Shown piece after piece: positions 46,690-47,869 of a DNA stretch of 64,000 nucleotides. The translations under genes and the position numbers were made by a program. Numbering within the stretch: the stretch's first letter is position 1; each line of letters starts with the position of its first letter. Source of the stretch: Escherichia coli (GTDB taxonomy: Bacteria; Pseudomonadota; Gammaproteobacteria; Enterobacterales; Enterobacteriaceae). A model generated the notes under the pieces. It was not told the DNA's origin, did no database searches, and saw nothing but the letters and a program-made list of their open reading frames with translations. The stretch is from the NCBI RefSeq assembly GCF_029227855.1, contig NZ_CP074356.1; one strand, 5' to 3'.

Positions 46690-47110
46690 TAAACCATTTA
46701 TCAATAGGTAAGTACCGGAAATTATTCCAGTAGAATATTTTCAGGCGATTGCCTATTAATAAATACATTATTGATAGATAAGTGCCTTCTGTGATTTGTC
46801 CGCAAATCACAGAAGATGAAAACCTATCAATACGGGATATTTTCACGGAAATACCAATTAATACTCCAGAATATCTCCTGACCATATACTCTGAAACCTG
46901 TAAGAACTGCATCAGATATTGAGAGACCATATAGATATAAGTCTGAAATTATTTTGTTTCCAATGATTTCAGGCGAAAACCTATCAATGCATCTGTTTTC
47001 AATAGGCAGCCACCTTCCGTGATTAACATGTTAATCACGGAAGGTGAAAAGCTATCAATAATCGATATTTTCACGGAATTACCACTTAATACATCCCAAA
47101 AAATGCGCCA
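46690..47110. repeat. Iteron-like repeat block: six CTATCAAT-type motifs in both orientations around two long perfect palindromes
   Basis: tatcaatagg, attgatagat, cctatcaatac, cctatcaatgc, ttcaatagg and gctatcaataa; 30-bp palindrome 46786-46815 (cttctgtgatttg tccg caaatcacagaag) and 36-bp palindrome 47011-47046; ~45-bp unit gaaaaCctatcaata...atattttcacggaaTtaccaAttaatac is duplicated. Confidence 0.5.
47011..47046. repeat. Perfect 36-bp palindrome
   Basis: caccttccgtgattaacatgttaatcacggaaggtg equals its own reverse complement. Confidence 0.8.
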
Positions 47111-47869
47111 TAAAATACCGGGCAATCTTTCCTGATACACATTATCACTGCACCAGCTATACAGAGACAAAATAATCTGCACCAGCCCCTGTAAATCGGT
47201 TATTTGTGCCAGTGTCCCGCCGCTCTACCTGTTCAGGGTTGTGCCAGTTTCTGGCCCTTTGGTTTTCGGCCCTTTCCGGTCAGGCGCTGTTACCCTTATT
47301 GCCCCTTAACCTTTATGACCCTTTCCCTTTCTGACGCAACCAGTTTATTTTGAAATGCTCCATGACAGTCTGCACCAGACTGTATTTTCACCACAGGATA
47401 ACGATCACAAAGTGCAAAAAAATAACATGAAGCACCGAAGATTGTTAATCTATATGTAGCAGGTAATGATGTCAAAAACTGTCGCAGCATTTTTTATAAA
47501 ATTATGAGACATTCTGTGGGCATATAATATATGTCACAAGATGCAGGAAAACAAAGAGAGAGTTTTCAGATATAATCCTGCGTTAGAATTAATGTGATGC
47601 CCCGGTGAATTTACATTTTAAAATTTCCCTGTCCCGTAATATCGGTAAAAACGATTGAAACACCAACTATTAATCGGGAACGTCTCGAGTGATTACAGGG
47701 TAATCACTATAATATCCCGGCAAACTATATTGGTTAAGCAGGAGAATCTGATCAGTTGATATTTATTCGTCATGCTGTAACGATATTTTCACAATATAAA
47801 CCCGTTCGCCCCCTGCGCCAGATCCGGTACAGAGGGTACGATAAATCGCTGTCGTTACGCAGTAACGTA

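What the first reader, a model, noticed from the sequence alone, without database searches (positions are those of the whole stretch)
46786..47708. Three palindromes share GTGATT...AATCAC half-sites with 7-9 bp variable centres
tGTGATTtgtccgcaAATCACa (46786-46815), cGTGATTaacatgttAATCACg (47011-47046) and aGTGATTacagggtAATCACt (47688-47708) share the same half-site. Recurrence of one half-site across 900 bp suggests multiple operators for a single dimeric DNA-binding protein, or related hairpin-forming elements.
Basis: seen in the sequence. Interest (0 to 1): 0.42.

Follow-up and report, generated by a model that had tools for sequence, protein, structure and literature searches.

The report
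Hairpin repeat units in a mobile island
The three palindromes are real, but they look like related copies of a hairpin-forming repeat unit in a non-coding stretch of a decaying E. coli genomic island, not binding sites for one regulator; their function is untested.

Summary
GTGATT-N7/8-AATCAC occurs three times against 0.06 expected, all within 920 bp. The true palindromes are longer: 30, 36 and 21 bp.

Context: an E. coli island at tRNA-Asn. The palindromes lie in a 1.3-kb AT-rich, unannotated spacer between two convergent pseudogenes. One is a P4-type integrase. The other is a PF12834/PF12835 tyrosine-recombinase-like gene, the Pfam signature used for MpsA/MOB_M atypical relaxases.

P1 and P2 are paralogues, lying in a 131-nt direct repeat 228 bp apart. 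All three are cores of one unit family: a TATTGATAGG-like box, a perfect palindrome, then GTGAAAAC-CTATCAATA. In other units the core palindrome has an unrelated sequence.

Arm substitutions are mirrored at 4-5 positions. One variant changes both half-sites, to ATGATT...AATCAT. The units are absent from the roughly 200-bp minimal spacer of other genera, and they persist where the island's Ner-like HTH gene is deleted.

My preferred mechanism is single-strand hairpins, possibly like a single-strand origin (sso). That is inferred, not shown. Self-maintaining palindromes with no function remain a serious rival. Modest interest.

The parts
46786..46815 (.). P1: palindrome CTTCTGTGATTTG-tccg-CAAATCACAGAAG, the upper stem of a two-tier hairpin unit
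   Evidence: Single-stranded DNA hairpin of -13.2 kcal/mol, z = -7.9. Conserved in L002, L003, L007, L008, L011 and metagenome loci.
46769..46832 (.). Extended P1 unit: lower stem TATTGATAG (46769-46777) with CTATCAATA (46824-46832), an 8x8 internal loop (ATAAGTGC / ATGAAAAC), then the upper stem P1
   Evidence: Inverted repeat I2. Two-tier fold on either strand, -17.3 and -17.8 kcal/mol.
47011..47046 (.). P2: perfect 36-bp palindrome CACCTTCCGTGATTAACATGTTAATCACGGAAGGTG, a paralogue of P1
   Evidence: Hairpin of -17.3 kcal/mol, z = -7.4. Variants with mirrored changes.
47688..47708 (.). P3: palindrome AGTGATTAC-agg-GTAATCACT, on the other side of the conserved core
   Evidence: Hairpin of -6.5 kcal/mol. 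Left flank TATTAATCGGGAAC matches the family's left box. Centre length varies among loci.
47675..47719 (.). Extended P3 unit: lower stem CGGGA (47675-47679) with TCCCG (47715-47719), an internal loop, then the upper stem P3
46734..46864 (+). Direct repeat D1, copy 1 (contains P1 plus the tail GAAAACCTATCAATA...GATATTTTCACGGAAATACC)
   Evidence: 131 nt, 73% identical to copy 2, spacing 228.
46962..47092 (+). Direct repeat D1, copy 2 (contains P2 plus the same tail)
   Evidence: E. whittamii L011 carries a single hybrid unit, with the P1 left flank and the P2 right flank.
46653..46668 (.). Alpha-type sister palindrome TATTTGGccCCAAATA, followed by GGTGAAAACCAATCAATA. In other loci the same slot holds TTCACCGGTGAA, TTCTACGTAGAA or a 54-bp palindrome.
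46941..46974 (.). Degenerate second alpha-type inverted repeat (GTCTGAAATTATT..AATGATTTCAGGC), followed by GAAAACCTATCAATG
   Evidence: (D2, I4).
46565..46594 (+). Intrinsic terminator of the P4-type integrase gene. It is conserved in every genus and marks the left edge of the variable spacer.
47239..47343 (.). Conserved core of the spacer: GCCCTTT-like direct repeats plus CCGGTCAGGCGCTGTTACCCTTA, bracketed by CTGCGCCAG-type motifs. It is the only part of the spacer present in all genera.
45169..46532 (+). P4-type tyrosine integrase, frameshifted pseudogene, next to tRNA-Asn (45034-45109)
47870..48487 (-). PF12834+PF12835 tyrosine-recombinase-like gene (candidate MpsA/MOB_M-type relaxase). It is a pseudogene here, with two internal deletions relative to the 294-aa intact form.
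   Evidence: Literature.
47853..47867 (+). Hairpin CGTTACGCAGTAACG at the right edge of the spacer, terminator-like on the + strand
   Evidence: Four copies flank an inserted ORF in E. albertii L012.

Best explanation
P1, P2 and P3 are the perfect upper stems of a family of strand-asymmetric inverted-repeat units of about 75-110 bp. Each unit reads: a left box TATTRATMGG-AAAG, a variable perfect palindrome, then a right tail GTGAAAAC-CTATCAATA.

Shown:
- The units sit in a lineage-specific, AT-rich, non-coding expansion of the spacer between two convergent genes, a P4-type integrase and an MpsA/MOB_M-like tyrosine-recombinase-type gene. The element is integrated at tRNA-Asn or tRNA-Asp.
- The shared GTGATT half-site reflects common descent. 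P1 and P2 arose by a 228-bp tandem duplication, and P3 is a more distant copy.
- What is preserved is arm-to-arm complementarity, not a recognition sequence.

Inferred:
- The units act, or at least behave, as extruded hairpins on single-stranded nucleic acid, with the conserved asymmetric flanks giving them polarity.
- The role I consider most likely is ssDNA structure that helps convert the transferred or rolling-circle single strand of the mobilizable island back to duplex. That would be sso/ssi-like, like the three-hairpin sso1 immediately downstream of the relaxase gene in ICEBs1.
- Arm perfection is probably kept by hairpin-templated (template-switch) correction as well as by any selection.

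I put about 0.5 on 'hairpin-type structural repeat family, not operators'. I put only about 0.2 on the specific sso-like role.
For: Paralogy: D1, 131 nt, 73% identical, spacing equal to the P1-P2 distance. A hybrid single unit occurs in L011.

Family architecture: the same flanks occur with three unrelated palindrome classes, always in one orientation, in 0-5 copies, on both sides of the core, in Escherichia and in Salmonella-type loci.

Mirrored substitutions among 14 distinct P1/P2 units: positions 3, 4 and 11 switch on both sides. Position 10 goes G:C to G:T to A:T, with the double mutant keeping a perfect 36-mer. Position 16 is also partly compensated. The alpha-slot cores also co-vary.

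Stability: stable two-tier hairpins, z = -5.9 to -7.9 for the three palindromes alone and -3.5 to -7.6 for the extended P1 and P3 units.

Not coding: the two minus-strand ORFs are broken by 8-nt and 14-nt indels in relatives.

Not a known RNA: no Rfam family matches beyond a chance miRNA hit at E = 0.35.

Not dispersed: found only in this module, 1-4 places per genome, with no phage hit.

Not tied to the HTH gene: P1 to P3 are intact where the Ner-like HTH gene is deleted.

Neighbour gene: full-length PF12835 (1e-58) and PF12834 (7e-40). PF12835 is the signature used for the SGI1 atypical relaxase MpsA. MOB_M relaxases lie next to an integrase in 96% of cases.

Precedent for position and form: ICEBs1 sso1 is a roughly 200-bp, three-stem-loop, orientation-specific region immediately downstream of the relaxase gene.

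Intact elements also carry units: L004, L006 and L057.
Against: - No transcription, ssDNA or protein-binding data exist for this region.
- The strand could not be assigned. The single-sided changes are too few and mixed: two G:T, one C:A and one C:T event. Both strands fold equally well.
- Many cores are palindromic right through the centre (AACATGTT, AACGCGTT, CACCGGTG, CTACGTAG). A hairpin loop does not require this. It points to duplex symmetry or to a mutational symmetrising process.
- The units are absent from the roughly 200-bp minimal spacers of Klebsiella, Pseudocitrobacter, S. arizonae, Erwinia and an unclassified Enterobacteriaceae isolate, so they are dispensable for the module.
- In most E. 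coli copies, including this window, both flanking genes are pseudogenes. Present-day conservation may therefore be inheritance rather than selection.
- No sequence similarity to any known sso or ssi was shown.
- That the neighbouring gene is a relaxase rests on a shared Pfam family and on literature, not on a direct comparison with MpsA.
Confidence: 0.5

Rival explanations
1. Palindromes with no function that maintain themselves. The AT-rich spacer between two convergent, often dead genes grows by tandem duplication and by deletion between the GAAAACCTATCAAT direct repeats. Once a quasi-palindrome exists, hairpin-templated template switching during replication copies one arm onto the other. 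That yields perfect arms and apparent compensatory changes without any selection.
For: - Perfect symmetry runs through the centre of many cores.
- Copy number varies from 0 to 5, and indel boundaries fall at direct repeats. One example is the 75-nt P2 unit, present in L004 and absent in L005. Another is the hybrid unit in L011.
- The units are absent from minimal spacers in other genera.
- Integrase and relaxase-like genes are pseudogenes in the window and in many relatives.
- Uncompensated mutations also occur, in L002, L008, L003 and L033.
- Quasi-palindrome correction by template switching is an established mutational mechanism in E. coli (my own knowledge).
Against: - The same unit architecture, with conserved asymmetric flanks, one orientation and a palindrome of any sequence in the middle, is kept between Escherichia- and Salmonella-type elements. 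It is also kept in elements whose integrase and relaxase-like genes are intact.
- This reading does not explain why palindromes arise repeatedly in exactly this slot.
Confidence: 0.25
2. RNA-level hairpins. The units are transcribed as part of the long 3' untranslated region of the relaxase-like operon (minus strand), or from spacer promoters. They would act as stabilisers against 3' exonucleases, or as insulators that keep convergent transcription of the integrase and relaxase-like genes apart, as REP/BIME elements do.
For: - The location is between convergent genes.
- The relaxase-like gene has no obvious intrinsic terminator of its own in minimal spacers.
- RNA folds have z about -5 to -6 on both strands.
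- A + strand terminator-like hairpin at 47853-47867 suggests that + strand transcription across the spacer is stopped before it enters the relaxase-like gene.
- P3 abuts TATAAT on the + strand and TATTAT on the minus strand.
Against: - No U-tracts follow P1 to P3.
- Promoter-like hits are no more frequent than in shuffles (6 vs 5.5).
- The -35 element next to P3 is not conserved between variants.
- There is no G:U bias that assigns a strand.
- Centre-perfect palindromes are not needed for RNA hairpins.
Confidence: 0.15
3. One reading: three operators for one dimeric DNA-binding protein that recognises GTGATT half-sites. Candidates would be the island's Ner/SfsB-like HTH protein or a host regulator.
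For: - The same hexamer occurs in inverted orientation three times within 920 bp.
- P3 overlaps promoter-like hexamers on both strands.
- An HTH gene lies on the island at 49404-49592 and is SfsB/Ner-like.
Against: - The half-site changes symmetrically, to ATGATT/AATCAT in L031.
- P1 and P2 arms differ at 3 of 13 positions, all mirrored.
- Arms of 13-18 bp are far longer than a typical half-site.
- The centre length of P3 varies.
- Sister units carry unrelated palindromes in the same slot.
- The HTH gene is deleted in L002, L007 and L008 and absent in L003, yet P1 to P3 are intact there.
- P1 and P2 lie downstream of both flanking genes, not at their promoters.
- No match to any host operator consensus that I could recall (my own knowledge, not a test).
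Confidence: 0.1
4. Sites for the neighbouring tyrosine-recombinase-like enzyme. They would be either core-type recombination sites (11-13-bp inverted arms around a 6-8-bp centre) or oriT-like 'inverted repeat plus conserved 3' tail' sites that a MOB_M-type relaxase nicks.
For: - The geometry fits 12-6-12 (P1) and 13-6-13 (P2).
- Every palindrome is followed by the same tail, GTGAAAAC-CTATCAATA, which resembles the 'inverted repeat then nic region' layout of many oriTs.
- The adjacent gene carries PF12834/PF12835.
- The oriTs of all three studied TR-like relaxases contain inverted repeats, shown to matter for transfer in SGI1 and pIGRK.
Against: - The centres of P1, P2 and P3 differ, so the sites could not recombine with each other.
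- Arms differ completely between unit classes.
- No inversion or cassette exchange bounded by the palindromes was seen among 11 loci.
- Known TR-like relaxase oriTs lie upstream of the relaxase gene, and that of SGI1 is GC-rich. These units lie downstream and are AT-rich.
- Copy number is variable and can be zero.
Confidence: 0.07

Closest known systems
Single-strand origins / single-strand initiation sites (sso of rolling-circle plasmids; sso1 of ICEBs1)
   Same: A non-coding region of a few hundred bp next to the relaxase(-like) gene of an integrative mobile element. It has several adjacent stem-loops, a fixed orientation and an exchangeable, host-lineage-specific character. ICEBs1 sso1 lies immediately downstream of nicK and has three stem-loops.
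   Different: No sequence similarity to any sso was shown. The function, the strand and the orientation dependence are untested. Copy number varies from 0 to 5. Stems here are unusually long and perfect.
oriT regions of tyrosine-recombinase-like (MOB_M) relaxases: SGI1 mpsA-oriT, pIGRK mobK-oriT, pCW3 tcpM-oriT
   Same: Arrays of inverted repeats next to a TR-like gene of the PF12835 type in an integrative mobilizable element.
   Different: Those oriTs lie upstream of the relaxase gene, and the SGI1 one is 125 bp and GC-rich. The palindromes here lie downstream, are AT-rich, repeated and dispensable. In this island the upstream position is occupied by EFASI, and by STAXI in L006.
REP/BIME, ERIC and other intergenic palindromic repeat units of enterobacteria
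   Same: Imperfect-to-perfect palindromic units, clustered, often between convergent genes, and able to form hairpins in RNA or DNA.
   Different: Those families are dispersed genome-wide with a fixed consensus. These units occur only in this one module, 1-4 places per genome, and their core sequence is not conserved.
Operator palindromes of dimeric HTH repressors
   Same: Inverted hexamer half-sites with a short variable centre. One copy (P3) is next to promoter-like hexamers.
   Different: Arms of 9-18 bp, mirrored half-site changes, a variable centre length, and no cognate regulator that co-occurs.

Membership tests
Operators of one dimeric DNA-binding protein | Half-site sequence held to a consensus across copies and across related elements | tested here: not met
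   P1 and P2 arms differ at 3 of 13 positions. L031 has ATGATT/AATCAT in both arms. Sister units carry unrelated palindromes.
Operators of one dimeric DNA-binding protein | Fixed centre-to-centre spacing of the half-sites | tested here: inconclusive
   P1 and P2 keep a constant total length. P3 varies between 19 and 22 bp among loci.
Operators of one dimeric DNA-binding protein | A cognate regulator that co-occurs with the sites | tested here: not met
   The only island HTH gene (Ner/SfsB-like) is deleted in L002, L007 and L008 and absent in L003, where P1 to P3 are intact. A host regulator cannot be excluded.
Operators of one dimeric DNA-binding protein | Specific protein binding | not testable with these tools
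   Needs EMSA or footprinting.
Intrinsic (rho-independent) terminators | GC-rich stem followed by a T/U tract | tested here: not met
   P1 to P3 are not called by the terminator scan. It does call the integrase terminator at 46565-46594. No T-run follows any of the three.
Dispersed intergenic repeats (REP/BIME, ERIC, MITEs) | Many copies spread over the genome | tested here: not met
   The spacer matches only 1-4 places per E. coli genome. Every copy whose neighbourhood was inspected lies in an integrase / relaxase-like module.
Known RNA families (Rfam 15) | Covariance-model match | tested here: not met
   Only a chance mir-2944 hit at E = 0.35 on P1. Nothing else in the spacer of the window or of six relatives.
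oriT of MOB_M (tyrosine-recombinase-like) relaxases | Lies in the first intergenic region upstream of the relaxase gene | tested here: not met
   The palindromes lie downstream of the stop codon of the relaxase-like gene. Known examples are upstream.
oriT of MOB_M (tyrosine-recombinase-like) relaxases | Confers mobilisation in cis | not testable with these tools
   Needs mating assays.
Single-strand origin / ssi | Non-coding multi-hairpin region on a rolling-circle or conjugatively transferred element, close to the relaxase or nick site | tested here: inconclusive
   The multi-hairpin, non-coding character and the position within about 0.2-1.1 kb of the relaxase-like gene are met. That the element is transferred as ssDNA is inferred only from the Pfam family.
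Single-strand origin / ssi | Orientation-specific promotion of complementary-strand synthesis | not testable with these tools
   All units share one orientation relative to the module. That is compatible but is not a functional test.
Single-strand origin / ssi | Sequence similarity to a characterised sso/ssi | not tested
   No library of sso/ssi sequences was available.
Tyrosine-recombinase core sites | Partner sites share an identical central (crossover) region | tested here: not met
   The centres are GTCCGC, ACATGT and ACAGGGT. No rearrangement bounded by the palindromes was seen among 11 loci.
Integron attC sites | Terminal R''/R' boxes (RYYYAAC / GTTRRRY) at the base of an imperfect hairpin, one site per cassette | tested here: not met
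   The unit bases are TATTGATAG/CTATCAATA. GATTAAC/GTTAATC sit at the centre of P2, not at its base. The consensus is from my own knowledge.
MpsA / MOB_M relaxase family (for the neighbouring gene 47870-48487) | Tyrosine-recombinase-like catalytic domain of Pfam PF12835 | tested here: met
   The intact orthologue L004:5042-5926 matches PF12835 at 1e-58 over the whole model, and PF12834 at 7e-40. PF12835 is the MpsA signature used by the Burrus group.
MpsA / MOB_M relaxase family (for the neighbouring gene 47870-48487) | Located next to an integrase | tested here: met
   Convergent with a P4-type integrase in all 9 genome-contig loci and, by annotation or tblastn, in 10 further loci. The preprint reports 96% of MOB_M relaxases nearby an integrase.
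MpsA / MOB_M relaxase family (for the neighbouring gene 47870-48487) | Direct sequence similarity to MpsA, MobK or TcpM, and relaxase activity | not tested
There is no PDB relative. Unlike MpsA, MobK and TcpM, this protein keeps an N-terminal core-binding-type domain.

The most novel reading that the evidence does not exclude
The hairpin units are host-lineage-specific single-strand initiation (sso/ssi-like) modules. They would prime complementary-strand synthesis of MOB_M-type integrative mobilizable elements after conjugative entry into Escherichia or Salmonella. I know of no such element described for enterobacterial genomic islands (own knowledge; not searched). A wilder variant is also not excluded: the spacer could be a cassette-like array whose segments are exchanged at the CTGCRCCAG motifs by the tyrosine-recombinase-like enzyme.
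Probability: 0.15. Interest if true: 0.6.

Novelty: new member of a known kind. Interest (0 to 1): 0.3.

Why it matters
Islands that pair a P4-type integrase with an MpsA/MOB_M-like gene at tRNA-Asn or tRNA-Asp are common. The spacer matches about 590 of 5,426 complete E. coli genomes, and the islands carry Rhs toxins or type VI secretion genes. A 2026 preprint argues that such 'integrases' are in fact the most frequent chromosomal relaxases.

The non-coding DNA between the two genes is unannotated. If its hairpin units help establish the island after transfer, or insulate the two convergent genes, they would be a cis-acting part of a widespread but little-studied mobilisation module. If they have no function, they are a clean natural example of palindromes whose arms evolve in concert.

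In either case the practical lesson is that recurrence of a palindromic half-site can come from tandem duplication plus arm-to-arm correction. It should not be read as an operator set without comparative data.

Tried and rejected
- **Coding:** the paralogous minus-strand ORFs 46646-46930 and 46949-47182 contain the palindromes, but 8-nt and 14-nt indels break them in relatives.
- **Known RNA:** Rfam at E <= 1 finds nothing real in the spacer. STAXI does not contain the CTGCRCCAG motif.
- **Phage or plasmid origin:** no phage match. The only plasmid match is a 473-kb Salmonella replicon carrying the same module.
- **Invertible or shufflon-like DNA:** no inverted segments among 11 loci.
- **Strand assignment from wobble pairs:** too few events. 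Folding both strands does not discriminate.
- **Promoter or ssDNA-promoter layout:** I read the hairpins for TTGATA, 17 nt, then a -10 hexamer. There are no convincing -10 hexamers. The promoter scan is at background.
- **Matches recalled from memory:** the IHF, DnaA-box, CRP, LexA, FNR, PurR and CRISPR-repeat consensus sequences do not fit. These are leads only, not tests.
- **Integrase arm-type sites:** neither the CTGCRCCAG motif nor the tail word GTGAAAAYC recurs at the island's far end (attR).
- **Units downstream of other relaxase-like genes:** none found, in L006 copy 1 or on the plasmids L059 and L060.
- **Literature:** no paper holds the palindrome sequences. The SGI-4 oriT paper is not held.
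- **Core as a structured RNA:** RNAalifold finds 11 weak pairs and essentially no covariation.
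Full report
**1. The observation**

The pattern GTGATT-N{5,11}-AATCAC occurs exactly three times in the 64-kb window, at 46791-46810, 47019-47038 and 47689-47707. Expected by chance is 0.06, and no shuffle reached three. The hexamer alone is not enriched (46 vs 37.6).

- P1 is CTTCTGTGATTTG-tccg-CAAATCACAGAAG (46786-46815).
- P2 is a perfect 36-mer, CACCTTCCGTGATTAACATGTTAATCACGGAAGGTG (47011-47046).
- P3 is AGTGATTAC-agg-GTAATCACT (47688-47708).

Only 11 perfect palindromes with arms of at least 9 bp exist in the window. Three of them lie in this 1.34-kb stretch (P = 0.0013; shuffled spacer 0.06). The other eight mostly look like terminators.

**2. Context**

The window is E. coli chromosome; the spacer together with the ends of its two flanking genes (46500-47900) is 100% identical to strain JNEC-KY178. 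A 10.6-kb island sits at a tRNA-Asn gene (45034-45109). Its attL repeat is at 45090-45113 and its attR repeat at 55643-55666. Its parts are:
- a frameshifted P4-type integrase (45169-46532, + strand);
- a 1.3-kb AT-rich stretch with no annotation (46533-47869; 33-45% GC);
- a frameshifted 'phage integrase N-terminal domain' gene on the minus strand (47870-48487);
- an EFASI RNA (48543-48670, minus strand);
- a Ner/SfsB-like HTH gene, a 153-aa ORF, a C4 antisense RNA and isrK-like elements;
- an Rhs toxin with a TPR gene.

The palindromes therefore lie between the 3' ends of two convergent genes, not in their promoter regions.

**3. The neighbouring gene**

The intact orthologue (294 aa) matches Pfam PF12835 over the whole model (1e-58) and PF12834 (7e-40). 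It has only weak XerC/XerD similarity and no relative in the PDB.

PF12835 is the signature the Burrus group uses for MpsA, the tyrosine-recombinase-like atypical relaxase of Salmonella genomic island 1. A 2026 preprint reports that such MOB_M relaxases are the most common relaxases in chromosomes. It adds that they are often annotated as integrases and lie next to an integrase in 96% of cases.

In all nine species-representative genomes that encode a relative, the gene is convergent with a P4-type integrase. These are E. whittamii, E. albertii, Serratia, Klebsiella indica, Cedecea, Pseudocitrobacter, S. arizonae, Erwinia and an unclassified Enterobacteriaceae. I did not compare the protein directly with MpsA, so 'MOB_M-like' is an inference from the shared family and from context.

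**4. Comparative anatomy of the spacer**

The spacer matches in about 590 of 5,426 complete E. coli genomes, 1-4 places per genome. The copies whose neighbourhood I inspected lie at asn or asp tRNA sites with Rhs or type VI secretion cargo, and the spacer itself is almost never annotated.

In five other genera the spacer is only about 200 bp. It holds the integrase terminator, a few TGCACCAG/CTGCGCCAG motifs and a strongly conserved core, which corresponds to window 47239-47343. Other lineages carry different insertions at the same place:
- an ATPase ORF in Cedecea;
- an unrelated ~0.5-kb insertion in Serratia;
- an ORF flanked by four CGTTACGCAGTAACG hairpins in E. albertii.

The GTGATT palindromes occur only in E. 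coli and E. whittamii. They are therefore a lineage-specific addition to a variable spacer. They are not part of the conserved module.

**5. What the palindromes are**

P1 and P2 lie at equivalent positions of a 131-nt direct repeat, 73% identical and 228 bp apart. E. whittamii has a single hybrid unit. Some E. coli relatives have one unit, and the aspV-type islands have none.

Each palindrome is followed by the same tail, (G)GTGAAAAC-CTATCAATA, and preceded by a TATTRATMGG-AAAG-type box. P1 thus forms a two-tier hairpin: a 9-bp lower stem TATTGATAG/CTATCAATA, an 8x8 internal loop and a 13-bp upper stem. P3 has the same left box and a degenerate tail.

Units with the same flanks carry quite different palindromes:
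- TATTTGGccCCAAATA in this window;
- AAAATTATTCACCGGTGAATAATTTT, CAAAATTATTCTacgcAGAATAATTTTG and CGTACAAAAAATTTTGccccCAAAATTTTTTGTACG in other Escherichia and Salmonella-type loci.

All units have one orientation and occur on both sides of the core. The three palindromes are thus members of one subfamily of a repeat-unit family. Their shared half-site is most simply explained by common descent.

**6. Operator or hairpin?**

Among 14 distinct P1/P2 units, positions 3, 4 and 11 (counted from the centre) switch on both sides: G:C with A:T, T:A with A:T, and T:A with C:G. Position 10 goes from G:C through G:T (L003, L007) to A:T (L031). That last step changes GTGATT/AATCAC to ATGATT/AATCAT while keeping a perfect 36-mer. 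The alpha-slot cores co-vary in the same way.

A protein that reads GTGATT would hold the half-site constant. What is preserved here is complementarity. Further points against the operator reading:
- The arms are 9-18 bp.
- The centre length of P3 varies.
- The only island-encoded HTH gene is deleted in L002, L007 and L008 and absent in L003, where P1 to P3 are intact.

Other readings are also excluded:
- The region is not coding. Indels of 8 and 14 nt break the ORFs.
- It has no Rfam match.
- It is not a dispersed repeat.
- It shows no inversions.

The hairpins are very stable as ssDNA: -13.2, -17.3 and -6.5 kcal/mol, with z = -5.9 to -7.9. The strand cannot be assigned.

**7. Mechanism**

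Shown: a family of strand-asymmetric inverted-repeat units whose arms evolve in concert.

Inferred: they behave as hairpins on single-stranded nucleic acid.

The best-fitting precedent for a multi-hairpin, orientation-fixed, exchangeable non-coding block beside a relaxase gene of an integrative element is the single-strand origin sso1 of ICEBs1. That element lies immediately downstream of nicK and forms three stem-loops. I therefore favour an sso/ssi-like role, at about 0.2.

Three observations keep a no-function, self-maintaining explanation (duplication plus template-switch correction) at about 0.25:
- Many cores are palindromic through the centre.
- The units are dispensable in other genera.
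- Most E. coli copies flank dead genes.

RNA-level insulation or stabilisation between the convergent genes is a third option, at about 0.15.

Known oriTs of tyrosine-recombinase-like relaxases lie upstream of the relaxase gene. Here that position holds EFASI, so an oriT role for the palindromes is unlikely.

**8. Novelty and verdict**

Neither Rfam nor a search of the paper library for the three palindrome sequences turned up these units. They are an ordinary kind of object: structured inverted repeats in the non-coding DNA of a mobile element. They sit in a module that has only recently been recognised as a probable mobilisation module.

The operator interpretation is not supported. The alternative, 'related hairpin-forming elements', is supported. 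Interest is modest (0.3) unless an sso-like or other cis-acting role is demonstrated.

Noticed in passing
window 47239-47343: The spacer has a core that is strongly conserved from Erwinia and Serratia to E. coli. It consists of about six GCCCTTT-like direct repeats plus the near-invariant CCGGTC(A/T)GGCGCTGTTACCCTTA. It appears more conserved than the flanking genes, whose integrases share only about 57% amino-acid identity. RNAalifold finds almost no covarying structure, so it looks like a DNA-level protein-binding site of unknown role. It has no Rfam match.
   Followed up: partly
window 47148-49176: The motif CTGCRCCAG is strongly enriched (14 copies vs 1.2 expected). There are six + strand copies at 47148-48536 and four minus-strand copies at 48818-49176, so inverted arrays flank the relaxase-like gene. 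Copies also sit at the edges of segments that differ between relatives; for example, the P3 block is replaced in L004 and L005 between two such motifs. They could be binding or recombination sites. This was not tested.
   Followed up: partly
window 48543-48670 (minus strand); L006:7117-7243 and L006:999-1141: The EFASI RNA motif lies directly upstream of the PF12835 gene in every locus examined, and STAXI lies further upstream in Salmonella L006. In SGI1 the order is oriT, sgm-sRNA, mpsA. EFASI therefore occupies the position of the sRNA that SGI1 needs for mobilisation. The EFASI/STAXI region is also where the oriT of this module would be expected. This could explain two orphan Rfam motifs.
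   Followed up: partly
window 50104-50289 (minus strand): A C4 antisense RNA, its a1/b1 target motif and an isrK-like element lie upstream of a 153-aa ORF (49589-50050) and the Ner/SfsB-like HTH gene (49404-49592). The layout resembles a phage P1 immI-type antirepressor control module inside the island.
   Followed up: no
window 45169-46532 and 47870-48487: Both the P4-type integrase (frameshift) and the relaxase-like gene are pseudogenes. The latter has two internal deletions relative to the 294-aa form, seen as jumps at about 48007-48015 and 48212-48224. The island (attL 45090-45113, attR 55643-55666 with 2 mismatches) is probably immobile.
   Followed up: partly
window 47853-47867; L012 spacer (L012:2893-4015): The hairpin CGTTACGCAGTAACG sits at the 3' end of the relaxase-like gene. 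It occurs four times in E. albertii, flanking an inserted ORF of about 95 aa, and twice in the aspV-type island L005. The spacer looks like an insertion hot spot whose insertions duplicate local hairpins.
   Followed up: no
L016:4880-5869; L013:4880-5599: In Cedecea an ATPase-like ORF is inserted right after the integrase terminator, with a 17-nt duplication (CTGCTTTTTATTTGCAC). In Serratia a different ~0.5-kb sequence (not examined further) occupies the same position.
   Followed up: no
window 49254-49297: A GC-rich inverted repeat with 20-nt arms (95% complementary, 4-nt centre) lies upstream of EFASI. This is the region where an oriT would be expected by analogy with the GC-rich, inverted-repeat-bearing oriT of SGI1.
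   Followed up: no
L006:2665-2713: A 49-bp near-perfect palindrome (24-bp arms, AAATGTAGTAATTGTATGTTGTAT-c-ATACAACATACAATTACTACATTT) lies about 70 bp downstream of a second PF12835-type gene in the Salmonella replicon. It is unrelated in sequence to P1-P3.
   Followed up: no
window 50572-54174 and downstream: The island's cargo is an Rhs core protein gene followed by a TPR-repeat gene. Related islands carry type VI secretion genes or HigA antitoxin genes instead (L004, L005, L009).
   Followed up: no
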